64,000 nucleotides of DNA from Trypanosoma brucei (lineage: Eukaryota), in assembly GCA_000002445.1 (NCBI GenBank), contig CH464491.1:3776001-3840000 (forward strand), written 5' to 3'. Under the pieces are notes generated by a model. The model worked only from the letters and a program-made list of their open reading frames with translations. It did not search any database and was not told the DNA's origin. This document shows, in pieces, positions 27,922-47,006 of the stretch. Numbering within the stretch: the first letter of the stretch is position 1; each line of letters opens with the position of its first letter. The translations under genes and the position numbers were made by a program.

Positions 27922-30900
27922 ATGCTGCATGCAACTGTGGCGCCGTCGTTACCCGCGTCTGCAGTCACACACTCCGTATCGGGACGATTCTCTGAAGGTT
28001 TACCGGACAATGTTAGGGAATTGTTTATTTTCAAGAAGAATCACGTAGAATTGTGGCGTGTACCACAGGATCTGCCATCTGGTGAGAAGCGACTCTTATA
28101 TGTCACAGGGATACAATTGAATGCCCCGCCTGCATGTGTTGCAGTATGCAGGCCGACTGGATTTAGTGTGGATGTTCTTGTGATGTGCTTTGACGATTTT
28201 CATGTATCATTTGTCCAGTACGACCTGCTGTCGATGCGTCTCCGTACAGTGTTGCTTGTACAGTTGGATGACCGTGAGGTTTCACGCGACATGACACCTC
28301 TGGAACCTATCATGCGAGCAGATCCCACTGGAAGGTTTGTGATTGTGTTGGCTCGGCGACGGCACTTATTCCTTCTTCCGCTGTTGGGGCCAATGACATC
28401 CGAGGGCGCCTTGAAATCCGAGGCACAGCAGCCCGACAATGCTGAGGAACCAAATATCCCGGGTGCCACCCCTTCCGCATTGGGCGTTGCAGATGACTGG
28501 GGTGACGAGGGGGATTACGATGAGGAAACTAAAGAAAATAAGGTGGCAGAGTCGAGTGACGCCGCATGTGGAGGCGCGTCACCTGAGGAAAACAGCTCAA
28601 AGGTTGTCGGATCATCAAGTGTGCTTCTACGCATTGGCGCTATTTCCATGTTCACCCTTTCAAAGGTTCTGAAGAGTTCGATTCGCTATGTACGCGACGT
28701 GCAGTTTATCGGTACCCTCGGTGAACCTCTGTTAGCCATATTGTGTGAGCGGAAGCCAACATGGGCCGGGCGGGTGAAACTCGTGGAGTGGCGTACAAAA
28801 GCGGTTGAGTCGAATATGCTTTCTCAGCAAGTTACTTGGGTGCAGATCTCCGGTACGGCGAGTGCCCTCCCGAAGCTATTACTCGTTGGGGAGGTTGATG
28901 GTGTCCCTTACAACGTAACTCACATGTTACCGGTGGGCTCTATCTCACAGGCCATGTCGGGTGTAATTTGCTTCGGCGTTAACACGATTATGCACATCAC
29001 AACGAGGCGAGGTTATGGTGCCTACTGGAACGAAACAGGGAAGGAAGAGTGCACCAGTTCCAAGTCGTCTGCTGTCTCTTATGGTAAGATAAACTGGTGT
29101 GACAAAAAACTGGAGTCTTCAACCGCATTATTCCGAGTGAACCTTTCGTTGGCTAATTGTGTGGCGGCCACATTAGAGGGTAAGGATGATGAAGGGTCGT
29201 TACAAGCTGTTGCTGTGTCAGAGGACGATGGTGTCGTTCTGATGCTTCAGTTCCTCTCTCAGGGATCCAACATTCACGACATACGCATTGCCGTATTGAC
29301 ATCCGGGTGCTACTGCTCGAGCATAACTCCAATAAGTGAACGTCTAATGTTTCTGGGTTCCGCGGTAAGTGACTCTTGTATAGCAACCGTTCGCCCACAA
29401 GGCAGCAGCATGGAAAGTCGTTTCCAAGTTGTGGAGAGTATGGAGGCGATAGGTTCAATTAGGGATGTTGATGTTGTCGACTGCAGCGCCTTACCTGACG
29501 GGGGATCCAACACAACACCTCGCTCCGAAGCGGGTGGCTCGTGGCTTGAGGAGACGCCGTTTGCTGAGCTTGCTGGAATGACTTCGCTGGATCCTATGCC
29601 AAATCTGTCTTCCATGGATTGTCGTGCAGTGATGGATTTAGCAGTGTGTGCAGGACAGGGCAGTTCTGGTTGCATATATGTGCTGCGTCAGTCGATACGA
29701 AATGCGGTTGTTCGCCGTGAGAAAGTCAACGCTGTGTCAGCTTTCTTTTTGGAGCTACCGCGTAACCCCAAACGGCTGCGAACAGAGGGGGATGATAGGG
29801 AAGGGGCAGCTCAGAACGTCGCGGGACCGCCCTCACGACTTTTACTGACCGGCCTTTCTTTTACCATTCCGTTCACTGTTCGGGGGGAGTCGGTACAGCA
29901 AGAACGGCATTCGGAGTTCATTGCTAATTGTCGTACTGTTTTTGCGGCGGGGGTTCCGTGGTTGGGTGCCTTGCTTCAGCTGACGGAAAAGGAGGGTCGA
30001 ATTATATCGTCTAATGGACGAAAATTACTCCACCGCTTCTCCTTTTCCGGTGAGCGGGATTTGGATGAGAACAGGCAGGTTAAATCTGCATGTCTTGCCC
30101 CTGAGTTGCAAGCTTTATTTGTTCTCCTAGACGGTGGAGTGTTGTTGCAGTTCACGCTTTCAGAGATGGGAGGAGCGCCGCAGAGGAAGGAATTCGCTGC
30201 AGGTGTCGTGGCTTTTACACTCTGGAGGGAGCCCAAGTCCATCATTATGTTTATGTCAAGTCTCACAATGATGATTCAAGATGCGGAAACAGGAAGTATA
30301 CAATGGATAATCCCTCAGATGGGTACGTTGCCTCCGTACACTGTTTCGGAGGAACCAGTTGCTGAGGCAACAAAGGAACCATCTGCCAGTGACGATCTTC
30401 CCCACGTGACACACGTGGAGGTGTTGAACTTACTAGAAGAATCCGCTACCGATCCTGGTGGGATCGTGGCAACCGCCCTTCTTGTTGTACTTGGTACGGG
30501 TGAGTTGGCTGTATATCACGTTGTGGGGCCTGATAAGTTTGGTCCACTCCGCCTAATCAAGAAGTTTCACCACTTTCTTGATACGAAAGCCGTCCGTGAA
30601 GTTATCGAATCTATTGAGGCGAAAAAGATGCGCCTGCAAAGTGAGCGTACCATGATAGAGAACGACACGCAGTCGGTGCGACACTGCAGCCGGCGCATTA
30701 TACCATTTGCAGCTGTGGCGGGCCAATCTGGAGCATATGTCTGCGGACAACATCCATTGTTTCTCATGTGGGACAACCGTACCCGTCAACTCGTAGCGTA
30801 TCGTCACCAGGCCCCTGGACTCGTACGCGGCTTCGTTCCATTTACATCTATGCCTGGGGGTTTCATTTACTGTTGTGAGGGATTTGTTGATTTCGCCGTT

Positions 30901-32280
30901 ATGAATACCTATTGCAGTCCAGGTGGAAATGGGTGGCTGAGGCGACGTATCCACATTGGCGCAACACCGCATTTCATTGTGTACGACCCCCCAGGGAGAA
31001 GCTGTTTCGTCGTAACTTCAAAAAAAGTACCATTTCGTCCTCAGCGTGCATCTTTTGACGTACAACTGAAGATTCAGTACGATGAAGATTCGAACACTGT
31101 TCAGAGTGTAACAACGGAGGCACCCGTTTGCAACATGCCGGCCATTAAGCCAGGCACTGGTGTGCGGGTACCTTTGACAGAAAGGTTTGAAGTACGCCTC
31201 CACTCGACATTTAAGAAGGGATGGGACTGTACAGATAAGTTAATGCTTGACGAAAATGAGAAGGTGCTGGGCGCACAAATGGTTGAGATACACCAAGACG
31301 CAAACGCAGACGGGTCAGCTACGGCACCCGTATGTGTCGTATGCACTGCATTTCCCTTGGGGGAGGATGTTACGTGCAGAGGCCGCATCATTTTGTTGGC
31401 GTCCAGGAACATTAAGGGAAGGCGCTCTATTGTACAACTTCACTCCGAACCACTGAATGGTCCGGCAACTGCGGTAGCGGGAATCTGTTCCCAAATTGCA
31501 GTCGCAGTGGGTGGAACGATCAAAATATTTCGCTACGATTGGGAAACAAAGAAATTGGTGGTGAGTGCCTTCCTGTACGCGGGAATGTACGCAACGAGGT
31601 TATCTGTCTTTCGAAACTATATTATTTATGGTGATCTTTGCCGTTCTTGCTCGATGGCACGCTTTAACGAGGAGAACCACACTTTAACTGTGTTGGGTAG
31701 GGACCGTAGTGCGGTGTCCGTTGTCCACTGTGACATGATGTACCACGACCGTGCGTTCGGTATTCTTTGTTCCGACGATGAACGTAACGTGCTAATAATG
31801 GGATACACTCCACGCGTGCAGGAAACGGATGCAGGCACGCACCCCAAAGTCCTCGAGTCGGTTCTCTCACTTGATGGTGAGTACCGGCTACCCAGCGGTA
31901 GTCTTGTGAAATCCCTTCGCTTCCGCTCAACTGCGGGAAATTCCAGCGTGACTCTGTACGTAAGTAACTACGGTGAAATTGGCTTTATCGTGCCCATCGG
32001 CGAACAGGCTAACCGCACTGCGTTGTGGGTTACACGTCGTTTACAGATAGACCTTCCTTGTGAGGCGGGACTGACACCACGCATGTTTCTCAGCCTTAAT
32101 CAAAGGTCCCCGCGGAACTCACTACGCGGGAAGGAAATGCTTGTACCGGCTCCGCTGCTTCGGGGACTTTTTTCTCTCGACCTTCGTTCCCGGAAGGCTA
32201 TTGCGAGGGCCGCATACACGCAATTGGACCGCGTAGCAAATATTGTTGCGCTTGTGCATGAAGAATGTGGTTTGTTTTGA
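27922..32280 (+). CDS. CPSF160 / DDB1 / SF3b130-family triple beta-propeller protein, most consistent with cleavage and polyadenylation specificity factor 160 kDa subunit
   Basis: ATG at 27922. At 1452 aa its size matches CPSF160 (human about 1440 aa) rather than DDB1 or SF3b3 (about 1100-1200 aa). The N-terminal pattern 'NVRELFIFKKNHVELWRV' resembles the family N-terminus. The sequence is beta-rich throughout and the C-terminus is CPSF_A-like. Confidence 0.55.
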   Translation: MLHATVAPSLPASAVTHSVSGRFSEGLPDNVRELFIFKKNHVELWRVPQDLPSGEKRLLYVTGIQLNAPPACVAVCRPTGFSVDVLVMCFDDFHVSFVQYDLLSMRLRTVLLVQLDDREVSRDMTPLEPIMRADPTGRFVIVLARRRHLFLLPLLGPMTSEGALKSEAQQPDNAEEPNIPGATPSALGVADDWGDEGDYDEETKENKVAESSDAACGGASPEENSSKVVGSSSVLLRIGAISMFTLSKVLKSSIRYVRDVQFIGTLGEPLLAILCERKPTWAGRVKLVEWRTKAVESNMLSQQVTWVQISGTASALPKLLLVGEVDGVPYNVTHMLPVGSISQAMSGVICFGVNTIMHITTRRGYGAYWNETGKEECTSSKSSAVSYGKINWCDKKLESSTALFRVNLSLANCVAATLEGKDDEGSLQAVAVSEDDGVVLMLQFLSQGSNIHDIRIAVLTSGCYCSSITPISERLMFLGSAVSDSCIATVRPQGSSMESRFQVVESMEAIGSIRDVDVVDCSALPDGGSNTTPRSEAGGSWLEETPFAELAGMTSLDPMPNLSSMDCRAVMDLAVCAGQGSSGCIYVLRQSIRNAVVRREKVNAVSAFFLELPRNPKRLRTEGDDREGAAQNVAGPPSRLLLTGLSFTIPFTVRGESVQQERHSEFIANCRTVFAAGVPWLGALLQLTEKEGRIISSNGRKLLHRFSFSGERDLDENRQVKSACLAPELQALFVLLDGGVLLQFTLSEMGGAPQRKEFAAGVVAFTLWREPKSIIMFMSSLTMMIQDAETGSIQWIIPQMGTLPPYTVSEEPVAEATKEPSASDDLPHVTHVEVLNLLEESATDPGGIVATALLVVLGTGELAVYHVVGPDKFGPLRLIKKFHHFLDTKAVREVIESIEAKKMRLQSERTMIENDTQSVRHCSRRIIPFAAVAGQSGAYVCGQHPLFLMWDNRTRQLVAYRHQAPGLVRGFVPFTSMPGGFIYCCEGFVDFAVMNTYCSPGGNGWLRRRIHIGATPHFIVYDPPGRSCFVVTSKKVPFRPQRASFDVQLKIQYDEDSNTVQSVTTEAPVCNMPAIKPGTGVRVPLTERFEVRLHSTFKKGWDCTDKLMLDENEKVLGAQMVEIHQDANADGSATAPVCVVCTAFPLGEDVTCRGRIILLASRNIKGRRSIVQLHSEPLNGPATAVAGICSQIAVAVGGTIKIFRYDWETKKLVVSAFLYAGMYATRLSVFRNYIIYGDLCRSCSMARFNEENHTLTVLGRDRSAVSVVHCDMMYHDRAFGILCSDDERNVLIMGYTPRVQETDAGTHPKVLESVLSLDGEYRLPSGSLVKSLRFRSTAGNSSVTLYVSNYGEIGFIVPIGEQANRTALWVTRRLQIDLPCEAGLTPRMFLSLNQRSPRNSLRGKEMLVPAPLLRGLFSLDLRSRKAIARAAYTQLDRVANIVALVHEECGLF

Positions 32281-32678
32281 CGTTTTGTTACTCAGGCATT
32301 GACGCTGATGTTTTAATGGTTTCGTTCATCAATAATAATGTGTTGTCGAAGGGGGAAAAAGCCACAGTAGCGGTACTATTTCGACTCATACTCTGGTTGG
32401 CTCTAGTAACTTTTTTTTTTTAAAAAAGGGAACGCAATTATTCGTCCGGACTGCGCCCATTTCCTCCTCCCTGTGCCAAACATCATCTCACCAGCGCGAT
32501 GTGACACTCTTCCGTTTTTCTACTTTGTAAACACGTTATATTTCCAAACGTATTTGTACTGTATTTGTGATTTCATACGGCAAAAGTACAAAACAAATCC
32601 ACCACACAAGGGGTGAAGCGATTAATACAATAATCGTTGGCGGAGGTAGGGTGCAGACGTGGAATAGACATATTTCCG

Positions 32679-33923
32679 ATGAGTTATAGCTGGCGCGGCT
32701 GCCGTGTTCTGCTTGGTTCCATGCCCTCCTTCCGACCGCATATTCACAGACACCCATGCACAATATGCAGCAGCGCAGTGACGCAGTATCAAGATGCAAC
32801 TGAGACAACTAGTGCGGATATTTGTGACGACAAAAACATTCGCAACGATATTCATTCTGCCTCCCACGTTAGTTGTTTCAATTACCTTAGCAGCGATAAA
32901 GCCGCGACTGCTACGCCAGCATCGCTTCATTTTAGAGATCGACAGCCTTCAGGATGGAGTGGTAGGGCACTTGGCGCCACAGTATGCGAGAGTCGCAGGG
33001 CCGCTCTTAACGAGTGGCTCGGGATGATGCAGAATGCAGCAAAAACGACACAATCGCAACCTGAGGATGCATACCTTCAACAATGTTGGCAGGCGTTCCG
33101 TGATCCATCACGGGCTTTAACTGATCGTGAGATGGAAGGTGCTATCGAACTTCTCGACCGGCAATGTGAGTTTCAGAAGAGTTGTACAACAAGTGACAAG
33201 TGTTTGGTGGGGGAAAGTGCAAATTCGTTTTTGATGCGTCTGAGAGGTGGCGATGTCCATTCCGTGGATGAAGAGCGACAATTGTCGTTTCAGCGGACGC
33301 TCCTCGAGTTTCGTGATTTAGCCAATACCATAAAATTACCCTTCTTCCTTTGCTGTGGCACGGCGCTTGCAGCTCACCGTGAGGGTTATTTTATTCCGCA
33401 TGATGTTGATATCGACGTAGGTGTATTCTACGAAGACCTTCAGGACTTAGGTGATCCACAGAAGGCTGTCGTGGGTTTATTGTCACATGCCGCCCTTGGT
33501 GGGCGTTTTGTTCTTTTCGATGTATGTGGTACGGTGGAAAAAGGTCTCGAGTTGCGTTTCCTCCACAGTGAAACGCAAGTGCCAATAGACTTGAACGTGT
33601 ATTATCAACCGCTCCCACAGGATGACAAAATTGTAGCAGAGTTCGGCCCGTTTGTGTGGACGGCAACATATTATGAATCCTCTGCCGCGCGCCGTCACGG
33701 CATGTATCGTTACAGGCATGCGCCATTCCGTGCGGCCATGAAACACATGTCGTTCTGCGACACCATGGCGTCTTCATCTGATCCTACAAATACGGTGGGG
33801 TTTCTTGTTCCTCCGGAATCTTACGTGGAGGAATGTTATGGTAAGGATTGGCGCACCCCGCGGCGGTTCACGTATGCAGAGGGGTTACAAAATGGAGGCT
33901 TTGCAAATATCATTGACGAGTAG
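32679..33923 (+). CDS. LicD / fukutin-family nucleotidyltransferase-fold protein (putative phospho-sugar or phosphocholine transferase)
   Basis: The track start at 32637 is TTG, and the first ATG is at 32679. The LicD/fukutin signature is 'FFLCCGTALAAHREGYFIPHDVDIDVGVF' (compare LicD 'L..GTLLGA.R...IPWDDDIDV'). Confidence 0.6.
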   Translation: MSYSWRGCRVLLGSMPSFRPHIHRHPCTICSSAVTQYQDATETTSADICDDKNIRNDIHSASHVSCFNYLSSDKAATATPASLHFRDRQPSGWSGRALGATVCESRRAALNEWLGMMQNAAKTTQSQPEDAYLQQCWQAFRDPSRALTDREMEGAIELLDRQCEFQKSCTTSDKCLVGESANSFLMRLRGGDVHSVDEERQLSFQRTLLEFRDLANTIKLPFFLCCGTALAAHREGYFIPHDVDIDVGVFYEDLQDLGDPQKAVVGLLSHAALGGRFVLFDVCGTVEKGLELRFLHSETQVPIDLNVYYQPLPQDDKIVAEFGPFVWTATYYESSAARRHGMYRYRHAPFRAAMKHMSFCDTMASSSDPTNTVGFLVPPESYVEECYGKDWRTPRRFTYAEGLQNGGFANIIDE

Positions 33924-34472
33924 CATCACGATAATGCGGTGCTAGGTGCACCAAGTAGTTTAACCAGAAGCGGCACTAAGCTAACAGGCAAGAAAAAGTA
34001 GAAAAAAAAAAAGAAACATTTCTTCACCGCTTTTTTTTTGATAGTGCTTCATGATAAACAAGACGTGGCGCATTTACCACGCTGTTATCAGGTTAGACTT
34101 TGTGGCTTACGAATCCATTCCTTTGCCCGCAGACTCATTGTGTATGTTCATGTGTACACGAGTTAGAAACAAATTTCTTTGTGACCTTCCTTCCTCCTTC
34201 CTCTTCCTCTTCCTTTCCCTTTTTCGATTTTCCTTTTTGTTGCGCAGCTGTGCTCTCCTTTGATAATAAAATAACCTCCTTTATTTTCGCACCTTTGCAA
34301 AAGCCGACATTCTCGGGACCACATCGCGGGATCGAAAAGCGGGGAGGGAAGGGAGCCACGCCGGAAAGTGAAGGTAGGCGGTAGATCAGCCGTAGAATTG
34401 CACGACACATAACGATATTAGTGAGGCATTGCGTCACAACCTACTGCTCATACAAGCGGATCGCTCTGTCAC

Positions 34473-36233
34473 ATGTCAGCTACTGATGTCGCATCTGAAC
34501 TGAGATCAGGCGCACCGGAGTATGTTCCCACTTTCCTACGTTGTAAGCAGTCCGAAAATGTTACGGCGTTTGAATCACCTGTTGTCTTTCTTATGTTCGG
34601 GTGCCGGGGTGCGGGAAAAAGTACTCAGTCCACGCTTCTTTCCAAAACATATAATTTACTCTACCTGTCTTCTGGTGACATATACAAGAGTGGAAAGCAA
34701 CCATTTGTAGAGTTGCGCAAAATATTGAATGAACACTTTGGCGATGGTAAGGAAAGGGTTTACAATGGCGTCGTGCTGGATCGATTCATTGCAAACTCCG
34801 AGTTTGAAGCGTTCTACGTGCAGACAGCGCTGCGGTCGGTAGGACTTCCGGTTCCGTTTGTTTTCATGCTGGCAATCGATCAAGGACTTGCAGCGAAACG
34901 GGCGGAGGAGCGTGGTGACAATAAAGGTGGTAACCAGCGGTGGCGGGCTGTGGAACAAAAGGCACAGGCAATCACTGCCAATACCGTATATGCCCCGATT
35001 CAGTGCCTCAAAACCATCCGTGTGGAAAGTGACATGACAATCGATGATGTGTTCAATGAGATCAAGACAACCATTGCGAATCAACTTCCTCCAGATCTTT
35101 TCAACCTTCAACTTCCTCGCGAAGCACGGCGAGAGGTGGAAGGGACGGTATTGGTTGAAGACTATGAGCTATATATGGAGCTCGCAAACGATGTGCACAC
35201 CGTCGTTGGAAACCTCCGCGGCCGCCGTGACAGCGCTCCACTCTCCAACGTGGGGGCTCATTTGGATAAGGAATATTTTTCCTTCGCCAATAAGAGACTC
35301 CGCTCACAGCTCACAACAATGCATGTGACACTAAAGGCAGACGGCTTACGATTCCTAGTGATGAAGCATAAGACGCGTGGTTACATTGGCTTTCCCTCAG
35401 CTTTTACGCATTGCTACGAGCTCAATGATCTCTTCGAAGGTGTAGAGATGGCCCCAAAACCCTACACGGAACTTAAGAAATGGATGAATGATAAATCATG
35501 TGAACTCCCAGCAGATTTTCTTCTCGACACGGAGGTTGTTGTGCACGAGAAGAAGCCAACATTGTACATTATTGACTTTATTTACTTCTGGGGTCTGGAT
35601 GGAAGGCGGATGCAGTTCGAGCAGCGACTAAAGGTATTGCGAGAATACTTTGGAGATATGAAGCCACAGGGTCAGGTTATTGCAATGAAGGATTACGTGC
35701 CCATAAACAAGATACGAACTCTGGTGGAGGAGATGAAGAGGAGAACTGAGCTTCCAGTTGATGGTTTAATATTCCAGCACAATGGCTCGTACAGATTTGG
35801 GTCCGACAAGTTTCTAATCAAATGGAAGCCCGTGCATTTGTGCACTGTCGACTTTCGTCTAGCCAACGGAAGGGTGGAAAATGGTGTTTGGACGTTTGAC
35901 CTTTTTGTTACAGACGACTTCATTGAAGAGAACGGATTTAGAGAAGTTGCTTACCCTGGCGCTACGGCATTAATACCGGCATCAGTGGTTGAGGAAAATG
36001 GCTTGCAGAACGGAATGATTATTGAAATGGCTCTTTCTGAAAAGGAATCCGTGAAAAAAACGTCACCAAATGCACCTTCTGAGAAAACAAGATGGACCTT
36101 TCGGAATGCGCGCAATGACAAACCGTCCCCAAATAAGTACAGTATAGTGACCAGGATTTGTGAACTTATGCACGTTGATCTAGACGAGCTCGTGAGCTTG
36201 TGCGAGAAAGTTCCCTTTTACAGAAATGTGTGA
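34473..36233 (+). CDS. CE1: mRNA capping enzyme with an N-terminal P-loop kinase-like domain and a C-terminal GTP:RNA guanylyltransferase domain (TbCe1-type)
   Basis: ATG at 34473, 586 aa. Walker A is 'GCRGAGKST'. Guanylyltransferase motifs appear in order: I 'KADG' (in 'VTLKADGLRF'), III 'FLLDTEVVV', IV 'DGLIFQ', V 'FLIKWKP'. This two-domain layout is the one described for trypanosomatid CE1. Confidence 0.8.
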   Translation: MSATDVASELRSGAPEYVPTFLRCKQSENVTAFESPVVFLMFGCRGAGKSTQSTLLSKTYNLLYLSSGDIYKSGKQPFVELRKILNEHFGDGKERVYNGVVLDRFIANSEFEAFYVQTALRSVGLPVPFVFMLAIDQGLAAKRAEERGDNKGGNQRWRAVEQKAQAITANTVYAPIQCLKTIRVESDMTIDDVFNEIKTTIANQLPPDLFNLQLPREARREVEGTVLVEDYELYMELANDVHTVVGNLRGRRDSAPLSNVGAHLDKEYFSFANKRLRSQLTTMHVTLKADGLRFLVMKHKTRGYIGFPSAFTHCYELNDLFEGVEMAPKPYTELKKWMNDKSCELPADFLLDTEVVVHEKKPTLYIIDFIYFWGLDGRRMQFEQRLKVLREYFGDMKPQGQVIAMKDYVPINKIRTLVEEMKRRTELPVDGLIFQHNGSYRFGSDKFLIKWKPVHLCTVDFRLANGRVENGVWTFDLFVTDDFIEENGFREVAYPGATALIPASVVEENGLQNGMIIEMALSEKESVKKTSPNAPSEKTRWTFRNARNDKPSPNKYSIVTRICELMHVDLDELVSLCEKVPFYRNV

Positions 36234-36824
36234 AGGAGTTAACCGCCAATATGTGGGGTATACAAGTGGATAAACACACCTTCGCTGGTTGTGGACGTGT
36301 GATCGCTAACAAAAAAAAACATCTAACGAATATTATCAATGTTTCTATCGTATACTTGTATGAGTGGTTACGGTTTTGATACCGACGGCTGCGTGCATTC
36401 CTCAATACCCACGTAATACACTTGGCTTCCCTACTTCTTTCTCCTCTTGTCTTGCTTTAAAAAAAAAAAAAACGTTCTTAACTTCGTCTTACAACTCATA
36501 ACAGAAGCTTATCCTAGTTGAAGGTACCCGGCACTCCTCTTTTATTTTTTTTTTGTGGCCCTTAGCGATACACGGGACGCATTGCTGGTGAGGCTGCACC
36601 GTATTACGAATACCTCGTTATTACATCGCCAACAATCAATTAATTAGTAGTGAAAAGGGGCTCAGGAAGGTGGAGAGGGAAAAATATATAAAAGAACGCT
36701 ATATTTCTTCTGCAGTCGCGCGTCAGAAGTATTTCGTGAAATAAAAATATTGTGCCCGGACAAGTAGGAGAGAGGGAAAGATAACATATATCCTTAGCTC
36801 CAGGGTTGGCGTATACATATATAT

Positions 36825-36844
36825 ATATATATAATAACGTGTAA
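36825..36844. repeat. (AT)n microsatellite
   Basis: Read directly: 'acatatatatatatatatataat'. Confidence 0.85.
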
Positions 36845-37070
36845 TAGCAACAGCTACCTTCTGTGGTGGCAGTGTGAAAGGATTGCGCACAAATAACAGA
36901 AAAGTGGGAACGGTACAACTGCGCAAGGGAAAGAATATCAAAAAAAATAGAGGAAGCGATATCAAGTGCCTGGAGTAGAAACTATCCCACCTTTTAAATA
37001 GTGGAAGTGATTAGAGGAGATCTCAAAGGGAAGGGACCTTTCTTGTTCTCTTACTTCCTGTTACTTTCTA

Positions 37071-38960
37071 ATGTCACTAAACCCTAACGCTCCTCCATGG
37101 AATGTTCCTGATCACAATATGGACCACGGCATGGACCCGCATGGTCGTCACGGGCACCAAGACCCCCGGTTTCACAATTTCAGCGGTTACTATCCTCAGC
37201 ACATGCCCATGCACCAAATGCAAAGTGTGCAAAATATGGGAATGCCACGGTCTATGATGAATCACGGCTACAACCATCCAGCTGCTCATATACATCCCAT
37301 GCAACATAGTGCGCCACCCGGTCAGGCGTTCCACCAGGGGCGAGCGCGAGGTCAGGCTTATCTTGGTGGACACGTGAACGCAATGCCCGCCGTTCCCGCG
37401 CCATCATATAGGAAACAGCACATTGTGGTGGTGGTGGTGCTCGGTTACAGGTGCGTAGGGAAAACAACTGTTGCCCGACAAATAGCAAAGGTACGCAACT
37501 ATCGGTACGTCTCCCTGAAACCTAGTGAAGATGCCGGTAGCGTTTCGCCAGAGGCATTCGTGGCGCCGGTGGTGGAACTTTTGGCCAGTAAGAATTCATA
37601 TGAAGGTATAGTCATTGATGACATTGTGTCACAGAATAAGTACGACCCCTACTACGTACAGTCTGTGTTGCAGAAACACGGACTCAAGCTGGATGTTGTG
37701 GTTTTATTGGACAGTGAGTTGGACAATGCAAAGGAAGGCGTGGATTATGAAGATCCGCAGCAGCGGAAGCTGCATCCAGAGAGCTACGAGTTCTGTGCGT
37801 GTCACCTCAATGGTGGAAATGCCGTTGTAGTGGAATGTCGCGGGAAGGATCTCGACGAAACAGTTGCTGAAGCAATGCGACAACTGAATGATGTGAACAT
37901 TGTGAAGGAATCAACTATTACGCTAAAGGAGGTTGCGCTAATGCCCAACTGCCCACTGGTGTGCAACCCATCAATGGTGACAGAGGTATTGGCGGCGCAA
38001 AGTGGAGTGTTAGGCCTTGCTGAGTCTGCTTCCTTTCCCTTCTCGGAACCTAATTACCTGTTAGAGTATACCATATTCGCGCGTCAGGCGCACGCGTTCC
38101 GAAGCTATATGATCATTCCATGGATCAAAGGCGATAAGGTGTCACTCATTGGTTACAAAGATGCTATTTATTTGCACCTTCCAGCATATAATATACTATT
38201 TCAACTTAATGATAGCCCAACTGCACTAACGCACCTACTCAAAGAGACAACTGCAACGGGCGGATTGGCCTTCATATTCGAGGCCACTTTTGCCGCAAAT
38301 AAACTACACGTATCCGACTTACTCCTGTTGGGTGGCATGAAAGGATCCGAAATGCTGGTAAATGAACGTGTGGATTTGTTGAAGGAGAAACTTGGTGAAT
38401 TGAGGGAAGGTGCTGTGCAGCTGCTTCCCTGGTACCCTGTAAAGGATATGGAGATGTGCAAGAAGGAAAATCCAGAAGCAGATGGCATACTTTTCGTAAA
38501 TCCTGACGGTATTCAAGTTGGAGAGTACGACAGTCGAAACTATCTGTACCCGCTGCACAGGAAGAAAACAGTAGAACTTCGCATATGGAATGGTAATTTC
38601 ACTGGAGGGGTGTGGACATTCGATGCATACTGTGAGGAGGTGGGTACTGAGAAACTTGTCGAAGGCATTCCTGTGCACATCAATGATGATGTTGTGACTG
38701 AATACTGCATCAATGATGGTAACATTTTGGAGTGCACTCGAGAAGAGCAAAGTGTCGGAACAAATAAAGCACGCAAAGGGGGGAAACACTACGTGTTCAA
38801 GAGCCGTTGTCAGTGGGCTTCCAAGCCAACGACAACATACAAACAGGAATGCTTTGTTAATGAACCCAAGTGGCCATCAGACCGGCTAGCACAGGCGTGT
38901 GCTGCGATTACTTACACTCCCGCTGTGCGACGGGAAGTGCAGAATGAAGCTTCTGGGTAA
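37071..38960 (+). CDS. Divergent tandem paralogue of the CE1 capping enzyme: N-terminal PAM2-like motif, an M/H/Q-rich low-complexity region, a P-loop domain and a degenerate guanylyltransferase-like domain
   Basis: ATG at 37071. 'SLNPNAPPWNVP' matches the PAM2 consensus (compare Paip2 'NLNPNAKEFVP'). Walker A is 'GYRCVGKTT'. Three blocks are colinear with CE1: 'IKGDKVSLIGYK' with 'LKADGLRFLVMK', 'EADGILFVNPDG' with 'PVDGLIFQHNGS', and 'GGVWTFDAYC' with 'NGVWTFDLFV'. The KxDG motif has eroded to KGDK and motif V is lost. Confidence 0.65.
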   Translation: MSLNPNAPPWNVPDHNMDHGMDPHGRHGHQDPRFHNFSGYYPQHMPMHQMQSVQNMGMPRSMMNHGYNHPAAHIHPMQHSAPPGQAFHQGRARGQAYLGGHVNAMPAVPAPSYRKQHIVVVVVLGYRCVGKTTVARQIAKVRNYRYVSLKPSEDAGSVSPEAFVAPVVELLASKNSYEGIVIDDIVSQNKYDPYYVQSVLQKHGLKLDVVVLLDSELDNAKEGVDYEDPQQRKLHPESYEFCACHLNGGNAVVVECRGKDLDETVAEAMRQLNDVNIVKESTITLKEVALMPNCPLVCNPSMVTEVLAAQSGVLGLAESASFPFSEPNYLLEYTIFARQAHAFRSYMIIPWIKGDKVSLIGYKDAIYLHLPAYNILFQLNDSPTALTHLLKETTATGGLAFIFEATFAANKLHVSDLLLLGGMKGSEMLVNERVDLLKEKLGELREGAVQLLPWYPVKDMEMCKKENPEADGILFVNPDGIQVGEYDSRNYLYPLHRKKTVELRIWNGNFTGGVWTFDAYCEEVGTEKLVEGIPVHINDDVVTEYCINDGNILECTREEQSVGTNKARKGGKHYVFKSRCQWASKPTTTYKQECFVNEPKWPSDRLAQACAAITYTPAVRREVQNEASG

Positions 38961-41390: not shown

Positions 41391-42942
41391 AAGTGCCTAA
41401 TGTAGAAATCGTTACCTTCTGTCGGTCAGTGAATGTGTAAGTGCTCTGTGCCATAATACCTCGTTGCACATTTTTAAGAGTCAAAGTAAATATTGTATTG
41501 GCGTGGGGGGGAACGTGTAAATTAACGGAGAGACAACACAACGAAGTCTCCGCTGCTAACGACTTTGGAAGCAAACGTATTATCGTAAAATTGCGGTAAC
41601 GCTATACTGCAGGTGAGAGAAATGTAAAGGATATGCGCGCTGGTCGAGTGTCCAACATGGGTGGAATACAAGTTACGTGTACGAAATAAACAAAAACACA
41701 TGTGACCTAAATTATATAGATTAAGAGGATGAAGTACAGGAAAGTCTTGAAGGAAACAATAACTCGTGGTCCTAACTCCCTTTCTTTTGAGATGCAGCAG
41801 GAAGACAATTACCTGTGTGTTGTTTGTGTAAAGGTGGAATGGGAAAGAGTTATGAGGGAAGAGCTGTGGATGCTGAGCAAGAGGAGTCGTGATGTAAAGC
41901 TAAGAGGAATGGTTGGAATTGAAATGGGATCGAGTGTGAATAAGGTGATGGTTGCGTTTTGTCTGGTACGGATCTCAGATGGCAATGACATATTTTGTAA
42001 TGTGGTTGAATATGAATAAATAAGCAAAAGGAAAGTTGGACAGAAACTCCCCCTTTAACATCTTCCATTAAAGGATGGAAGAATGTGGTTTTCAATCGTT
42101 AATTTTTAATAATGCTAGTTTCGTGGAGAAAGGGTAATGATTTCTCGGATGCAAAGGCCGATATTTTCAGACGGAGGAGAACAGAAATTGATGGAGTGTT
42201 ATATCGCATGAATGAGTAACAAAATATTTATCTTTACTACGGGGATGCAATATTTGTGTGTATTTATTCAAATTCTTATTTACTACACACACCGAGAAGT
42301 GGAGAACATCTCATTACAAATAGTTGGGTGCTCTACAGGGACTCATCTTCTGGAGTCTCAAAGTGGTTTGGGTTCGCCAGTATGAGTGAGCAATGGGAAG
42401 GTAAAGGTAAGTTGAAGAAATAGGTTCATTTATCGGCAAACAGGATGTAAAGGGACACTGTAAGCGTACGAATAGCTGTTTATTTGATTGTCTTTGGTAA
42501 TGTGTATATTTTATGATGACTGACAAAAAGGTTGTGTGTCACCCCTTGTGACTGCGGCGGGAGGGGCGCAAGGGGTAATCTATTGTTTTTGGTTGAGTGC
42601 TAACTGATGGTAGTGTGATGTTTCTCGCTGCGGTGCGGGGGGTAATATCCAGGTTAATGAGTGTGGGTCCACAACATCGAAGGCAGAACCTATTCCTACG
42701 CTGCTTTCCAATGCGTCAAAGCTCTGCAAACAAAACCGGCAATCCTCTCCCACCCAACCTCGCGGAGCCGCATGCTGTAATCAAATCCGCTTGCAAACTG
42801 CAGCAACCACTTTGTACAATTTTTTTTTTCCTGCGTCCCATGTGATAACTGTCGCATAAACGAGGGGTAGCGGCCAGCGCTACACATACCCACATTATGT
42901 ATGCATTTGCCTACCGTTTCAGTCATTTGTATTTCTATAGAC

Positions 42943-44154
42943 ATGCTTGCAACAGTAGTTTTGTTTGTTGTGGCATTGGGAGTTAGCGTCGGTGATATAA
43001 ACGCCGAGAGGGCGGCGCTGAAGTTGAAGGTAGCTCAAGGGGTTTGTGCAGCAACGAAGGCGCTGAAGTCAGTTCACAGATACACGGTAGAAAAGGTGAA
43101 GGAGGCTGAGGGAAAATTGGAAGATGTACAGAATATGGTGAAACTGGCGAAACTCAAGGTGCTGAGGGAAAAAAAGGCTGGTAGTGTCGATTGCAGAACG
43201 ATGGCGTTTTTCCTCAACTATACAGTGAAGAAGGTGTCCGGTATGATAGAGTTACTTCCGAAAATTAGGGAGCAGGGTTTAAATCTCACGGCGTCAGCGG
43301 GTATAGCTGCAGGGAGATTGGAAGAAATGATAAATGTATTTCACCAACCATCTGACAGGCAGGAGAGTGATATCTTTTTCTGCATTGCAGGTAAACAAGG
43401 TGAAGGAGTTACAAAAAGCGAATTGGCTGACTGCTTCAAGGGTGGGAGGGATGCGATTGACTCTTCCCATTTTGTGGCCTTTGGTGATGCCGAGGCAACG
43501 AAGGGTTGGCAAGATATTTTCAAGGAGAAGGACGGGCTGGAGGGAGCATTGAAGAAACATCTAACAGTGGACGACAACGACCCTAGGTTTACGAGGGGGG
43601 AGGGACGCGGATGTCAGTTGGTACACGGAATGCAGGGAGGGGGATATATCAAGGATGCGAACTTCACGGAGCACATGCTATGGGGGGATGGTATACTTGG
43701 GGTGAAGAAAGATGGAAATGGAACGACTGGATATGTAGGAAGCACGAGGGGTAGCGACTACGATCACGATATTCTTTGGGAGAAGGATCCAACGGCGAGT
43801 GTCCCCAGTCTTCACGCAACCGTAAGTGATTACCACTCTTTCAGTGGTTTGCTGCACAAGTATGACACCATTTACCGCAGTGTTACAGAGGAGTGGACTG
43901 CAGATTTAATCCAGAGAGATCCCGAGGCTACTGATTTGCTAACCGCATCGGAGCTCACCGTCGAGGACGTTGCTGCACTCAACAGCCGCACGAAGCAGGA
44001 GTGGCTTTCCCAGAAACACGCCAAGGAAGCGGACAAGGAGTTTCTAATGACAGAGATACGATTTTGCGGGAAACTGAAACGAAGGGGATTCATCAGACGA
44101 ATGGTGAAGAAGATCCTTGGCGGACTTCGTATAAGTTGGACATCGGAGGGTTAG
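42943..44154 (+). CDS. ESAG7/PAG-like VSG-fold surface/secreted glycoprotein with a signal peptide and no C-terminal GPI signal
   Basis: The track start at 42901 is ATG, and a second in-frame ATG at 42943 begins the signal peptide 'MLATVVLFVVALGVSVG'. 'AAGRLEEMINVF', 'FFCIAGKQG' and 'LADCFKGG' resemble ESAG6/7 transferrin-receptor-family blocks (from memory). There are several NxT/S sites. The C-terminus is hydrophilic. Confidence 0.55.
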   Translation: MLATVVLFVVALGVSVGDINAERAALKLKVAQGVCAATKALKSVHRYTVEKVKEAEGKLEDVQNMVKLAKLKVLREKKAGSVDCRTMAFFLNYTVKKVSGMIELLPKIREQGLNLTASAGIAAGRLEEMINVFHQPSDRQESDIFFCIAGKQGEGVTKSELADCFKGGRDAIDSSHFVAFGDAEATKGWQDIFKEKDGLEGALKKHLTVDDNDPRFTRGEGRGCQLVHGMQGGGYIKDANFTEHMLWGDGILGVKKDGNGTTGYVGSTRGSDYDHDILWEKDPTASVPSLHATVSDYHSFSGLLHKYDTIYRSVTEEWTADLIQRDPEATDLLTASELTVEDVAALNSRTKQEWLSQKHAKEADKEFLMTEIRFCGKLKRRGFIRRMVKKILGGLRISWTSEG

Positions 44155-44284
44155 CAGTTTGTTTTGTGTGTGTCAACAGTTCTTTATTTGCAAATACGGA
44201 GGTTTGTACTGACTTCTTTGTCAATGGGTATTCGTGCAGGTGTACGTGTAGTGCTGTCTCTTTATTCCTGAAGTTATTGCCATT

Positions 44285-45394
44285 ATGAGGTTCATGCTAA
44301 GGTTAGTTATGTTGCTTGGTGTCCCCGTTGTATTTGCGGATGTGGCTACTATTGATAACAAACCACTGTCTAACAAAACAGTAGAGAGCATTTGTGATTT
44401 GTCAAAGATGTTGAAATTTGGGGTTCGTGCTTATGTCCTCAGTAAGACAAGGGAAGTGGAAGAGAAGTTGAAAGAGGTGACAATAGTAGGGAATTATGCG
44501 AAGCTGAAGATGCTGACGGGTAATTTAAGTGGCTTTGAGTGCGCCCAAAAGAAAATATACGTTACACATACACTGGAAACGAAAAGGGCAAGGATCAGTG
44601 ATTTGTTTAGGGACATGTGGAGCACAGGGGCGAAGCTGGTAGGCTCGTCAGGTCTTGTAGCAGGGAGGTTGGACGAGTTGGTAAATGTGTTTGCAAGTGC
44701 ATGGGCGAACGAAAGTCATTACTGTGCCCAAGGCTTTAAAAAAATTGTTACTTGCAATACATCAAAAGATAGTAGTGTGTCCTTAGAAGATTTTGACCGC
44801 AAGGGTCTAGCAAGTATTGTGGATGAAACACTCAGCATTAACAGCGATGAAGTGTTAGAAAACAAGAGCACTAGTTGCCTGCTAACTCAGGGGTTCAATG
44901 GGGGAGGATATCTGAAATACTCAAACAGCCAAGATCAAACTAAGAGTTCCGGACTGAAAAGGAATCTTGTTTGGGGTGACGGAATATTTGGTATCAGGAG
45001 AGACGGAAATGGTAGTACCTCGTCTCAAGGTATTGTTTCTAGTGCAGAGTATCCGACGGATGTCATGTGGGAGCACCAGCCATCAAAAATGATTCCCATT
45101 ATCAAATCGACAGTGAAAGATTTTGTAGACTTTCAAAAAGGCTTTAAGGAAATTGGCGTTGAGTTGAGGGCCCTTTTTAAGGAGTTGAAAGCGAAGGGTA
45201 TGATGACCACTGTGGCTGACAGTGATATTGCCGACAGTGATCAGCAGCTACTGAACCACAATTTCAAGATGTGCGGGAAGTTTTCTGTTGGAAAGGGAGA
45301 TTATTTTAAAGGGAGTGGGGTAGTGGGTCATACCACGTTGGGTGGAAACTGCATGCGTGCTGTTTTTTTTGTATTCTCTGTGGTATTGTGGTAA
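44285..45394 (+). CDS. ESAG6/PAG-like VSG-fold surface glycoprotein, paralogue of the upstream gene, with a signal peptide and a C-terminal GPI-anchor signal
   Basis: ATG at 44285. The signal peptide is 'MRFMLRLVMLLGVPVVFA'. 'VAGRLDELVNVF' and 'LVWGDGIFGIRRDGNG' are paralogous to 'AAGRLEEMINVF' and 'LWGDGILGVKKDGNG' of the upstream gene. The hydrophobic C-terminus 'AVFFVFSVVLW' is typical of a GPI signal. Confidence 0.6.
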   Translation: MRFMLRLVMLLGVPVVFADVATIDNKPLSNKTVESICDLSKMLKFGVRAYVLSKTREVEEKLKEVTIVGNYAKLKMLTGNLSGFECAQKKIYVTHTLETKRARISDLFRDMWSTGAKLVGSSGLVAGRLDELVNVFASAWANESHYCAQGFKKIVTCNTSKDSSVSLEDFDRKGLASIVDETLSINSDEVLENKSTSCLLTQGFNGGGYLKYSNSQDQTKSSGLKRNLVWGDGIFGIRRDGNGSTSSQGIVSSAEYPTDVMWEHQPSKMIPIIKSTVKDFVDFQKGFKEIGVELRALFKELKAKGMMTTVADSDIADSDQQLLNHNFKMCGKFSVGKGDYFKGSGVVGHTTLGGNCMRAVFFVFSVVLW

Positions 45395-45495
45395 CTGCAA
45401 TTCTAATGAGTGCTCTCCTTTTTGTTGTATGGAAACACTTATTCTGCTTACGCGATCCAAATATTTCTCATAAACTTTTAATTTTTAAAGTGAGA

Positions 45496-46872: not shown

Positions 46873-47006
46873 TGTTTTTGTTTGACGTTGGTGTTATGGT
46901 GATGAATCTCTTTGTTTGACCTGACTGATTAAGGCGAAAATAACGCTGCTGATAACTTTGTACCTCCCTTTTCCACCTTTTACCTCTTAAGATATAAACA
47001 ACAACA

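What the first reader, a model, noticed from the sequence alone, without database searches (positions are those of the whole stretch)
34473..38960. Tandem pair: two-domain (kinase + guanylyltransferase) capping enzyme followed by a divergent, probably catalytically eroded paralogue carrying a PAM2-like PABP-binding motif
Gene 1 (34473-36233) has Walker A plus the guanylyltransferase motifs KADG, DGLIF and KWK in the order described for trypanosomatid CE1. TbCe1 is reported to be cytoplasmic and to have an RNA 5'-kinase activity used for re-capping. Gene 2 (37071-38960) is clearly homologous. It has a P-loop and the colinear blocks 'IKGDKVSLIGYK', 'EADGILFVNPDG' and 'GGVWTFDAY'. Its nucleotidyl-transfer motif I is KGDK instead of KxDG, and motif V is absent. 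It has gained 'SLNPNAPPWNVP', a near-consensus PAM2 peptide, followed by a Met/His/Gln-rich low-complexity region. A pseudo-enzyme paralogue that docks to poly(A)-binding protein next to the re-capping enzyme would be a plausible mRNA-surveillance or translation module, and I am not aware of one being described.
Basis: partly seen in the sequence, partly recalled or inferred. Interest (0 to 1): 0.7.

Follow-up and report, generated by a model that had tools for sequence, protein, structure and literature searches.

The report
TbCe1 and its dead paralogue G5-IP
The two neighbouring genes are the already-studied Trypanosoma brucei cytoplasmic mRNA re-capping enzyme TbCe1 and its known paralogue G5-IP, whose guanylyltransferase catalytic residues are lost in every orthologue examined and whose predicted poly(A)-binding-protein docking peptide was already reported in 2024.

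Summary
Both ORFs are present exactly as described and are true paralogues (BLASTP E = 8e-18; profile-profile probability 99.65%).

**Gene 1** is TbCe1. All six guanylyltransferase motifs are invariant, and its K288 is the published active-site lysine.

**Gene 2** is TbG5-IP (Tb927.11.14590, 70.3 kDa), the published partner of EIF4G5 in the EIF4E6/EIF4G5 complex.
- Across 17 orthologues the nucleophile lysine position is an invariant Trp (W351).
- The catalytic side chains of motifs III, IV, V and VI are also gone.
- It is therefore a pseudo-guanylyltransferase.

**The N-terminal LNPNAxxW/F peptide** is conserved wherever an N-terminus is available. In Trypanosoma it is a PAM2w-type variant (Trp at position 10). 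It was not gained by gene 2, because CE1 orthologues carry the same N-terminal motif.

**The tandem pair**, within a CPSF160–LicD–CE1–G5-IP gene order, also occurs in distant kinetoplastid-like contigs.

The literature already describes G5-IP as a capping-enzyme homologue. A 2024 paper lists PAM2 motifs in G5-IP and CE1. The finding is therefore mostly known, and only small refinements are new.

The parts
34473..36233 (+). TbCe1, the cytoplasmic mRNA re-capping enzyme (586 aa, 66.9 kDa): an N-terminal PAM2-like peptide, a P-loop RNA 5'-kinase domain and a guanylyltransferase domain
   Evidence: ORF. Pfam mRNA_cap_enzyme E = 4.1e-10. 99% identical to T. b. gambiense 'RNA guanylyltransferase', and its T. 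cruzi orthologue is named 'RNA capping enzyme, cytoplasmic'. K288 in this numbering is the published active-site mutant K288A (PMC11417388).
34494..34529 (+). Degenerate PAM2-like peptide of TbCe1 (SELRSGAPEYVP)
   Evidence: Orthologues read NFNPDAPVFIPTF, SELNTDAKEFFPTF, MSLNPGAKEYKP and MSLNPNAPSFDP. Pfam PAM2 scores 21.1-23.6 bits for the T. cruzi and L. tarentolae CE1 N-termini, but gives no hit for the T. brucei peptide itself.
34599..34622 (+). TbCe1 Walker A (GCRGAGKS)
   Evidence: G43, G48 and K49 are invariant in 11 orthologues.
35334..35351 (+). TbCe1 guanylyltransferase motif I, KADGLR, with the K288 nucleophile
   Evidence: K288, D290, G291 and R293 are invariant. K288A lacks guanylyltransferase activity (PMC11417388).
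37071..38960 (+). TbG5-IP (Tb927.11.14590; 629 aa, 70.3 kDa): PAM2w, a low-complexity linker, a P-loop domain and a pseudo-guanylyltransferase (nucleotidyltransferase plus OB-like) domain
   Evidence: ORF. The best hit is T. b. equiperdum 'G5-interacting protein', listed at 100% identity although one residue differs between the two printed sequences. The computed mass of 70.3 kDa matches the 70.3 kDa given for Tb927.11.14590 in PMC5750579.
37074..37109 (+). N-terminal PAM2w-type peptide SLNPNAPPWNVP (L3, N4, A7, W10)
   Evidence: The LNP(N/D)AxxW/F/Y core is present in 15 of the 17 orthologue models. Of the other two, P0009 has the related KLNPLAHPFQ at an upstream in-frame ATG, and P0007 lies on a 1.9-kb contig. 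Trp at position 10 is the PAM2w variant shown to bind MLLE in LARP4/4B (PMC7356810).
37110..37406 (+). His/Pro/Met/Gly/Gln-rich low-complexity linker, predicted to be disordered
   Evidence: Composition. pLDDT < 50 for residues 1-114. The region cannot be aligned between genera and is longer in Leishmaniinae.
37419..37970 (+). Adenylate-kinase-like P-loop domain of G5-IP. Walker A GYRCVGKT lies at 37443-37466 and the VIDD Walker-B-like motif at residues 181-184.
38028..38510 (+). Nucleotidyltransferase-fold domain without catalytic residues. W351 (TGG, 38121-38123) occupies the Lys-nucleophile position, in WIKGDK against KADGLR.
38511..38957 (+). OB-like C-terminal part. It lacks motif V (KxK) and motif VI (RxDK), and carries an invariant RCxW at residues 579-582.
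   Evidence: The model has low confidence here.

Best explanation
**Identity.** The window comes from Trypanosoma brucei. Gene 1 is TbCe1, the active cytoplasmic re-capping enzyme. Gene 2 is TbG5-IP, an old tandem paralogue that kept the same architecture: N-terminal PAM2, a disordered linker, a P-loop domain and a guanylyltransferase fold.

**Shown here.** G5-IP has lost the chemistry of guanylyl transfer.

- The lysine that would form the enzyme-GMP intermediate is an invariant tryptophan.
- The motif III Glu, the motif IV Asp, the two motif V lysines and the motif VI Arg/Asp/Lys are all absent in every orthologue.
- The fold itself is under strong purifying selection.

**From the literature.** G5-IP binds EIF4G5 directly and is a stable subunit of the EIF4E6/EIF4G5 cap-binding complex.

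**Inferred.** G5-IP acts as a non-catalytic adaptor. Its N-terminal PAM2w peptide would dock onto the MLLE domain of a poly(A)-binding protein, linking the EIF4E6/EIF4G5 complex at the 5' end to the poly(A) tail. EIF4E6 itself has no PAM2-bearing extension. The conserved pocket of the dead guanylyltransferase domain (G354, K356, E404, F475, W351, W582) may still bind a nucleotide or the cap-4 5' end. In trypanosomatids the intact Walker A and B motifs suggest that the P-loop domain still binds NTP.

**Adjacency.** The two genes sit side by side because of ancestry, not because of co-regulation.
For: - **Identity.** Searches give the names and identities. The computed 70.3 kDa matches PMC5750579, and K288 matches the published K288A mutant.
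- **Homology.**
- **Loss of catalytic residues.** CE1 family, 11 of 11: K288, D290, G291, R293, D352, E354, D430, K450, K452, R547, D549 and K550. G5-IP family, 17 of 17: W at 351; T, S or V at 406; R, S, N, D, A or G at 471; no KxK; C/S-x-W at 580-582. The register is agreed by BLASTP and hhalign (both place G354 opposite G291), by hmmalign and by the strand pattern.
- **Age of the loss.** In a search of 1.84 billion representatives, every sampled hit whose motif I aligns with G5-IP rather than CE1 also lacks the Lys and the KxK, while the CE1-like hits keep TLKADGxR and KWKP.
- **PAM2.** Present at the extreme N-terminus in all orthologues with an intact 5' end. It is also present in CE1 orthologues and in distant homologues. 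Chance expectation is 0.007 per window.
- **Literature.** G5-IP binds EIF4G5 directly (PMC5750579, PMC10810786). [quoted passage not shown] PAM2w with Trp binds MLLE (PMC7356810).
Against: - No binding or activity was tested here.
- The T. brucei peptide gives no Pfam PAM2 hit. The Leishmania G5-IP peptide scores 16.6 bits, below the cut-off of 20.
- PMC11754739 states that direct binding of G5-IP to PABP has not been demonstrated.
- Position 12 of the motif is Val. The Pro comes one residue later.
- The OB-like part and the motif V region of the model have low confidence (pLDDT < 50 for residues 485-503 and others), so absence of motif V rests on sequence alignment.
- An invariant basic residue (K356) sits near the old active site, so unconventional chemistry cannot be formally excluded.
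- Several distant G5-IP-like proteins have also lost Walker A. T. brucei itself lacks a near-invariant Arg that corresponds to CE1 R143. The P-loop may therefore not be catalytic either.
- I could not read the primary 2014 paper.
Confidence: 0.75

Rival explanations
1. G5-IP is an active capping or re-capping enzyme that works inside the EIF4E6/EIF4G5 complex, as reviews have speculated ('putative cap-generating proteins').
For: It has the fold and domain order of TbCe1. The P-loop is intact in trypanosomatids. The T. brucei sequence on its own shows K353 and D471, which look like remnants of motifs I and IV. The possibility is raised in PMC5750579.
Against: K353 and D471 are specific to T. 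brucei (W/Q/A/Y and R/S/N/A/G in the other orthologues), and K353 aligns with the motif I Asp, not the Lys. The nucleophile position is Trp in 17 of 17. Motifs V and VI are absent. There is no Pfam capping-enzyme hit even at E <= 10, and no capping enzyme is found by a profile search of PDB sequences.
Confidence: 0.05
2. G5-IP is a stand-alone P-loop RNA 5'-kinase or NTPase. Its dead guanylyltransferase domain only positions the RNA 5' end, for example making ppRNA ends or sensing ATP/GTP.
For: Walker A (G125, G130, K131, T132) and the D183/D184 pair are invariant in 17 trypanosomatid orthologues. The domain has an adenylate-kinase fold at high pLDDT. The homologous TbCe1 domain is an RNA kinase stimulated by cap-4 methylation (PMC11417388).
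Against: Several deeper G5-IP-like homologues have lost Walker A altogether (P0039, P0040, P0041, P0047 and P0052). T. brucei G5-IP has deleted the Arg that is present in 16 of 17 orthologues and aligns with the invariant R143 of CE1. CE1's LDRF is VIDD in G5-IP.
Confidence: 0.15
3. The PAM2-like peptide is a chance match or serves another purpose, and the pair forms a co-regulated re-capping surveillance module because the genes are adjacent.
For: There is no Pfam PAM2 hit for the T. brucei peptide. Direct PABP binding is unproven (PMC11754739).
Against: The motif is conserved at the extreme N-terminus across trypanosomatids and in distant homologues, while the flanking linker cannot be aligned. 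Chance expectation is 0.007. The adjacency sits inside a conserved CPSF160-LicD-CE1-G5-IP order of functionally unrelated genes on one strand, which fits a tandem duplication. The LeishIF4E-6 interactome, which contains G5-IP, contained no other capping-process proteins (PMC8657474).
Confidence: 0.05

Closest known systems
TbG5-IP (Tb927.11.14590), the EIF4G5-interacting protein of the EIF4E6/EIF4G5/G5-IP complex (Freire et al. 2014; reviewed in PMC5750579)
   Same: It is the same protein. The best database hit is T. b. equiperdum 'G5-interacting protein', listed at 100% identity although one residue differs between the two printed sequences. The mass of 70.3 kDa, the NTP-hydrolase plus guanylyltransferase-like domains, and the resemblance to TbCe1 noted in the review all match.
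   Different: Nothing differs in identity. The accessible literature still speaks of 'predicted guanylyltransferase activity'. The residue-level loss of all catalytic motifs shown here may or may not be in the 2014 paper, which I could not read.
TbCe1, the cytoplasmic RNA kinase/guanylyltransferase re-capping enzyme (PMC11417388; Silva 1998 and Ignatochkina 2015 are cited there and in PMC5750579)
   Same: Gene 1 is this enzyme. Gene 2 shares its whole architecture, including the N-terminal PAM2 and both domains.
   Different: Gene 2 lacks K288 and the other catalytic residues. It has a roughly 100-residue His/Met/Gln/Pro-rich linker, and it is found with EIF4G5 rather than acting as a free enzyme.
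Snurportin-1 m3G-cap-binding domain (PDB 1xk5)
PAM2w motifs of LARP4 and LARP4B (PMC7356810)
   Same: The core is LNxxAxxW, with Trp replacing the canonical Phe at position 10, located near the N-terminus of an mRNA-binding factor. It has been shown to bind the PABP MLLE domain.
   Different: The Trypanosoma G5-IP motif has Pro-Pro at positions 8-9, and its Pro at position 13 rather than 12. Leishmaniinae orthologues have Phe or Tyr. Binding is untested.
TbG1-IP (Tb927.11.6720), a guanylyltransferase/methyltransferase-like partner of EIF4G1 in the EIF4E5 complex
   Same: It is another cytoplasmic capping-enzyme-like protein bound to a trypanosomatid eIF4G paralogue, and also reported to carry a putative PAM2 (PMC11754739, PMC5750579).
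   Different: Its domain composition differs (guanylyltransferase plus methyltransferase, related to TbCgm1). It is not in this window and was not analysed here.

Membership tests
mRNA capping guanylyltransferase (covalent nucleotidyltransferase superfamily): gene 1 | Motif I KxDG with the Lys nucleophile, followed by motifs III, IIIa, IV, V and VI in order | tested here: met
   KADGLR (K288), DTE, D368, DGLIF, KWKP and RNDK. All are invariant in 11 orthologues.
mRNA capping guanylyltransferase: gene 1 | Pfam PF01331 and PF03919 above the gathering score | tested here: met
   PF01331 scores 40.3 bits against 29.6. PF03919 scores 24.6 bits against 26.5, just below.
mRNA capping guanylyltransferase: gene 1 | Formation of enzyme-GMP and capping of ppRNA | not testable with these tools
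   From the literature only: TbCe1 K288A lacks guanylyltransferase activity (PMC11417388).
mRNA capping guanylyltransferase: gene 2 | Nucleotidyltransferase plus OB fold | tested here: met
mRNA capping guanylyltransferase: gene 2 | Lys nucleophile in motif I (KxDG) | tested here: not met
   The position is W351 in 17 of 17 orthologues. K353 aligns with the motif I Asp and is W, Q, A or Y elsewhere.
mRNA capping guanylyltransferase: gene 2 | Motif III Glu, motif IV Asp, motif V KxK and motif VI RxDK | tested here: not met
   T/S/V at 406. R/S/N/D/A/G at 471. P494 plus a gap in place of K450/K452. C580-x-W582 in place of R547-x-D549.
mRNA capping guanylyltransferase: gene 2 | Pfam PF01331 or PF03919 match | tested here: not met
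   No hit at E <= 10. A profile search against PDB sequences finds only P-loop kinases and ATPases.
G5-IP orthologous group (Tb927.11.14590) | Near-identity to the annotated G5-interacting protein, with the same size | tested here: met
   Listed at 100% identity and full coverage to T. b. equiperdum G5-IP, with one residue differing between the printed sequences. 70.3 kDa, as given in PMC5750579.
G5-IP orthologous group | Direct binding to EIF4G5 | not testable with these tools
   From the literature only (PMC5750579, PMC10810786).
PAM2 (PABP MLLE-binding motif, Pfam PF07145; consensus xxLNxxAxEFxP): gene 2 | Leu3, Asn4, Ala7 and an aromatic residue at position 10 | tested here: met
   M1-S-L3-N4-P-N-A7-P-P-W10-N-V-P13. 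Position 10 is W in Trypanosoma and F or Y in Leishmaniinae and Phytomonas. Trp at position 10 is the PAM2w variant (PMC7356810).
PAM2: gene 2 | Pfam PF07145 above the gathering score (20 bits) | tested here: not met
   No hit for the T. brucei peptide, and 16.6 bits for the L. tarentolae G5-IP peptide. CE1 N-termini of L. tarentolae (23.6 bits) and T. cruzi (21.1 bits) do pass.
PAM2: gene 2 | Binding to the MLLE domain of PABP | not testable with these tools
P-loop NMP-kinase-like fold (adenylate kinase type): gene 2, residues ~117-300 | Walker A GxxxxGK[ST], a Walker-B Asp and the adenylate-kinase fold | tested here: met

The most novel reading that the evidence does not exclude
G5-IP and its deep relatives form an ancient family of pseudo-guanylyltransferases. 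Their dead active-site pocket, now lined by invariant tryptophans (W351 at the former Lys nucleophile position and W582 at the former motif VI Asp), would read the hypermethylated cap-4 5' end in the way snurportin reads m3G. On this reading G5-IP would supply the cap affinity that the EIF4E6/EIF4G5 core lacks (PMC10810786), and would tether the complex to PABP through PAM2w. One subunit would then contact both ends of the mRNA.
Probability: 0.25. Interest if true: 0.55.

Novelty: already known. Interest (0 to 1): 0.25.

Why it matters
Trypanosomatids control gene expression almost entirely after transcription and have six eIF4E and five eIF4G paralogues. How the unusual EIF4E6/EIF4G5 complex recognises mRNA, and how it communicates with the poly(A) tail, remains open.

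If G5-IP cannot transfer GMP, the idea that this complex performs cytoplasmic re-capping becomes unlikely. Attention then shifts to an adaptor or cap-reader role. The analysis also points to specific mutants worth making: W351, K356, W582, K131 and L3/W10.

For the genome scan itself, the result is mainly that the finding rediscovers two named, published proteins.

Tried and rejected
- **Pfam scan of gene 2** at E <= 10 gave only weak AAA-type P-loop hits and no capping-enzyme model.
- **A profile of G5-IP orthologues against PDB sequences** found only P-loop kinases and ATPases, so the fold had to be established by structure prediction.
- **The TbCe1 model** was poor in its nucleotidyltransferase domain (pLDDT about 40). 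I used it only for the order of strands.
- **Primary papers not held.** Freire 2014 (PMC4135740), Ignatochkina 2015 (PMC4460440) and Silva 1998 (PMC109047) could not be read. I therefore could not check whether the loss of catalytic motifs is already published.
- **Supplements of PMC11754739**, which contain its PAM2 table, are not held.
- **A search for Tb927.11.14580**, my guess for the TbCe1 gene id, found nothing. I make no claim about the id.
- **Naming the distant homologues failed.** Cluster look-up gave no names, a word-based search with P0039 found only itself, and the afdb50 library was unavailable. The taxa behind loci L003 and L004 remain unidentified.
- **Chance as the origin of the PAM2 core** is rejected on conservation and on an expectation of 0.007 per window.

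Full report
**1. The observation**

ORFs 34473-36233 (586 aa) and 37071-38960 (629 aa) lie on the + strand, 837 bp apart. They sit in a long run of same-strand genes that ends at a strand switch near 50-51.7 kb. This layout is typical of a trypanosomatid polycistronic unit.

- Gene 1 matches Pfam mRNA_cap_enzyme (E = 4.1e-10, above threshold) and weakly matches mRNA_cap_C and several P-loop kinase models. Gene 2 matches only weak AAA-type P-loop models.
- The two proteins are homologous over about 500 residues. BLASTP gives E = 8e-18 at 22% identity. Profile-profile comparison of their orthologue families gives 99.65% probability, E = 3.7e-25, over 495 columns covering both domains.

**2. Identity**

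The best database match to gene 2 is 'G5-interacting protein' of T. brucei equiperdum, listed at 100% identity although one residue differs between the two printed sequences. Orthologues at 36-60% identity occur across Trypanosoma, Phytomonas, Leishmania and Leptomonas. The computed mass of 70.3 kDa equals that given for TbG5-IP, Tb927.11.14590, in the review PMC5750579.

Gene 1 is 99% identical to 'RNA guanylyltransferase' of T. b. gambiense, and its T. cruzi orthologue is named 'RNA capping enzyme, cytoplasmic'. Its motif I lysine is residue 288. [quoted passage not shown] Gene 1 is therefore TbCe1, the cytoplasmic RNA-kinase/guanylyltransferase re-capping enzyme.

**3. What the literature already says**

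- TbG5-IP binds TbEIF4G5 directly and forms a complex with TbEIF4E6. It has 'NTP hydrolase and guanylyltransferase' domains, and 'TbCe1 is similar in structure to TbG5-IP' (PMC5750579; also PMC10810786; PMC6075789).
- Leishmania G5-IP co-purifies with LeishIF4E-6 and LeishIF4G-5. That interactome contained no other capping-process proteins (PMC8657474).
- A proteome-wide HMMER search reported PAM2 motifs in G1-IP1, G5-IP, CE1, 4E-IP2 and RBP35, conserved in trypanosomatids. The authors noted that direct G5-IP:PABP binding has not been shown. They also proposed that eIF4Es without N-terminal extensions could reach PABP through G1-IP or G5-IP (PMC11754739).

The pair, the homology and the PAM2 are therefore all in print.

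**4. Is gene 2 catalytically eroded?**

I aligned 17 G5-IP orthologues (A1) and 11 CE1 orthologues (A2). In CE1 every catalytic residue is invariant: K288, D290, G291, R293 (motif I); D352, E354 (III); D368 (IIIa); D430, G431, F434 (IV); K450, W451, K452 (V); R547, D549, K550 (VI).

The register in G5-IP was fixed in four ways that agree:

- BLASTP places G354 opposite G291, K356 opposite R293 and P371 opposite P308, with CE1's L287-KAD290 falling in a gap.
- hhalign places W351 opposite K288 and G354 opposite G291.
- hmmalign of CE1 sequences to a G5-IP HMM aligns HVTLKADGLRFL with MIIPWIKGDKVS.
- The predicted strand pattern matches with a constant offset of 63 residues: E347-351, E355-362 and E365-370 in G5-IP against E283-288, E293-299 and E303-308 in TbCe1.

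On this register the G5-IP family reads as follows:

| CE1 catalytic residue | G5-IP position | Residues in 17 orthologues |
|---|---|---|
| Motif I Lys (K288) | 351 | W in 17/17 |
| Motif I Asp (D290) | 353 | W8, Q6, K1, A1, Y1 |
| Motif I Gly (G291) | 354 | G in 17/17 |
| Motif I Arg (R293) | 356 | K in 17/17 |
| Motif III Asp (D352) | 404 | E in 17/17 |
| Motif III Glu (E354) | 406 | T11, S5, V1 |
| Motif IV Asp (D430) | 471 | R9, S3, N2, D1, A1, G1 |
| Motif V lysines (K450, K452) | 494 and a gap | P, F or A, then a gap |
| Motif VI R-x-D-K (547-550) | 580-583 | C/S, x, W (17/17), x |

The K353 and D471 that made the T. brucei sequence look half-intact are peculiar to that species.

**5. 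Fold**

The AlphaFold2 model of G5-IP is confident for the P-loop domain and the nucleotidyltransferase domain, with pLDDT mostly 80-93. It is disordered for residues 1-114 and weak for the OB-like part.

- Foldseek against the PDB puts human RNGTT, Candida Cgt1, PBCV-1 and S. pombe Pce1 guanylyltransferases on top (E = 3e-11 to 1e-8). DNA ligases, snurportin-1 and nucleotide kinases follow.

**6. The PAM2 peptide**

The core LNP[ND]A..[FWY] occurs once in the six-frame translation of the window, with 0.007 expected, at codons 3-10 of G5-IP.

- It is present at the very N-terminus of 15 of the 17 orthologue models. Of the other two, P0009 has the related KLNPLAHPFQ at an upstream in-frame ATG, and P0007 lies on a 1.9-kb contig that ends near its start.
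- Position 10 is Trp in all Trypanosoma sequences and Phe or Tyr in Leishmaniinae and Phytomonas. Trp at this position defines the PAM2w variant of LARP4/4B, which has been shown by crystallography to bind MLLE (PMC7356810).
- Pfam's PAM2 model does not report the T. brucei peptide. It gives 16.6 bits, below the cut-off of 20, for L. tarentolae G5-IP. By that criterion membership is not met for gene 2 itself.

**7. The PAM2 was not gained by gene 2**

CE1 orthologues begin with the same kind of motif:

- T. theileri MSNFNPDAPVFIPTF
- T. congolense SELNTDAKEFFPTF
- Two unnamed ~710-720-aa CE1 homologues from Logan assemblies, MSLNPGAKEYKP and MSFNPNAHEYTP
- L. tarentolae MSLNPNAPSFDPTAKPFIPSF, followed by a low-complexity extension of about 540 residues

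Pfam PAM2 scores 23.6 bits for L. tarentolae CE1 and 21.1 bits for T. cruzi CE1, both above threshold. T. brucei CE1 keeps only a degenerate SELRSGAPEYVP. The architecture PAM2, linker, P-loop, guanylyltransferase fold is thus most simply ancestral to both paralogues.

**8. Age of the pair**

A trimmed G5-IP profile (A3) searched against 1.84 billion representative proteins found 50 proteins at E <= 1e-3. Aligned to the G5-IP HMM, the sampled hits fall into two groups by their motif I residues.

- **CE1-like** proteins keep TLKADGxR and KWKP.
- **G5-IP-like** proteins have W, Y, N, L, A, I, V, D, H or M at the nucleophile position and no KxK. Ten of the 17 G5-IP-like proteins listed carry an N-terminal PAM2-like peptide. 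Several of the deeper ones have also lost Walker A.

Three loci outside Trypanosoma keep the gene order:

- L. tarentolae: CE1 followed by G5-IP.
- A Logan contig: a CE1-like gene followed by the G5-IP-like P0039.
- An ENA metagenome scaffold: CPSF160, a LicD-like gene, a CE1-like gene and a G5-IP-like gene. Both capping-enzyme homologues have N-terminal PAM2 peptides (GINPNAAPFVP and SMNPEAVPFVS) and proline- or histidine-rich linkers.

The last of these is the same four-gene order as window 27922-38960. One EukProt gene model (P0032) even fuses the two genes. I could not name the organisms.

The adjacency therefore reflects an old tandem duplication preserved by synteny. It is not evidence of a functional operon-like module.

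**9. Mechanism**

- **Shown here:** loss of catalytic residues, with strong conservation of the fold and of a subset of pocket residues (G354, K356, E404, F475, W351, W582). Also an intact Walker A and B in trypanosomatids, and a conserved N-terminal PAM2(w).
- **From the literature:** direct binding to EIF4G5, membership of the EIF4E6 complex, and cited evidence of association with PABP2.
- **Inferred:** G5-IP is a non-catalytic adaptor that connects the EIF4E6/EIF4G5 complex to PABP.
- **More speculative:** the dead pocket still binds a nucleotide or the cap-4 end. Three observations prompt this. First, snurportin provides a precedent. Second, TbCe1 is stimulated by cap-4 methylation (PMC11417388). 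Third, the EIF4E6/EIF4G5(79-116) core does not bind cap, and the authors of that study suggest G5-IP may be needed (PMC10810786).

**10. Verdict**

However, the proteins are TbCe1 and TbG5-IP, both published, and the PAM2 was reported in 2024.

- An invariant Trp at the nucleophile position, and the loss of motifs III-VI across the family.
- The PAM2 is ancestral to both paralogues, and is of the PAM2w type in Trypanosoma.
- Deep conservation of the tandem arrangement.
- Loss of the P-loop in deep relatives.

Some of these may already be in the 2014 paper, which I could not read.

Noticed in passing
window 42901-48374 (+), with 48577-49707 and the strand switch near 50-51.7 kb: There is a chromosome-internal cluster of four VSG-family ORFs: two match Trypan_glycop A-type and two match VSG_B. 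It lies in a stretch of unusually high GC skew (0.22-0.30 between 42 and 50 kb), just before a convergent strand-switch region. Genes from 51773 onward are on the minus strand.
   Followed up: partly
window 25599-33923 (+): The upstream neighbours are a PPPDE/Peptidase_C97 protein (25599-27434), CPSF160 (27922-32280; CPSF_A E = 1.6e-72) and a LicD-family protein (32637-33923). The order CPSF160, LicD, CE1, G5-IP is conserved in an unidentified metagenomic scaffold (L004).
   Followed up: partly
window 37071-38960, around residue 222 of G5-IP (A1 column 467): T. brucei G5-IP has a one-residue deletion of an Arg ('KE-GVDY' against 'KERGVDY'). That Arg is present in the other 16 orthologues and aligns with the invariant R143 of CE1. 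The P-loop domain may therefore also be eroding in this species.
   Followed up: no
L001:1204-4524 (Leishmania tarentolae CE1 homologue): Leishmania CE1 is annotated as 1106 aa. It has a low-complexity N-terminal extension of about 540 residues that begins with two adjacent PAM2-like peptides (MSLNPNAPSFDP and AKPFIPSF). Pfam PAM2 reports two stretches.
   Followed up: partly
L002:1342-1824 and L004:7305-8000: Automatic gene models for two G5-IP homologues (P0009 and P0041) start at internal methionines. They omit an upstream in-frame PAM2 peptide and low-complexity linker. Database absences of the motif can therefore be annotation artefacts.
   Followed up: yes
P0032 (EukProt model, 1253 aa): This single gene model fuses a CE1-like protein (which appears to lack the motif I region) with a downstream G5-IP-like protein that has its own PAM2 (KKLNPEAPAFVP). 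It is probably a merge of the tandem pair across an AT-rich intergenic stretch.
   Followed up: no
P0039, P0040, P0041, P0047, P0052 (distant G5-IP-like proteins; L003:5630-7750, L004:7305-9857): Deep relatives of G5-IP have lost Walker A as well as the guanylyltransferase lysine, while P0039 and P0040 keep a DGxR remnant of motif I. In those lineages the whole protein appears to be a double pseudo-enzyme.
   Followed up: partly
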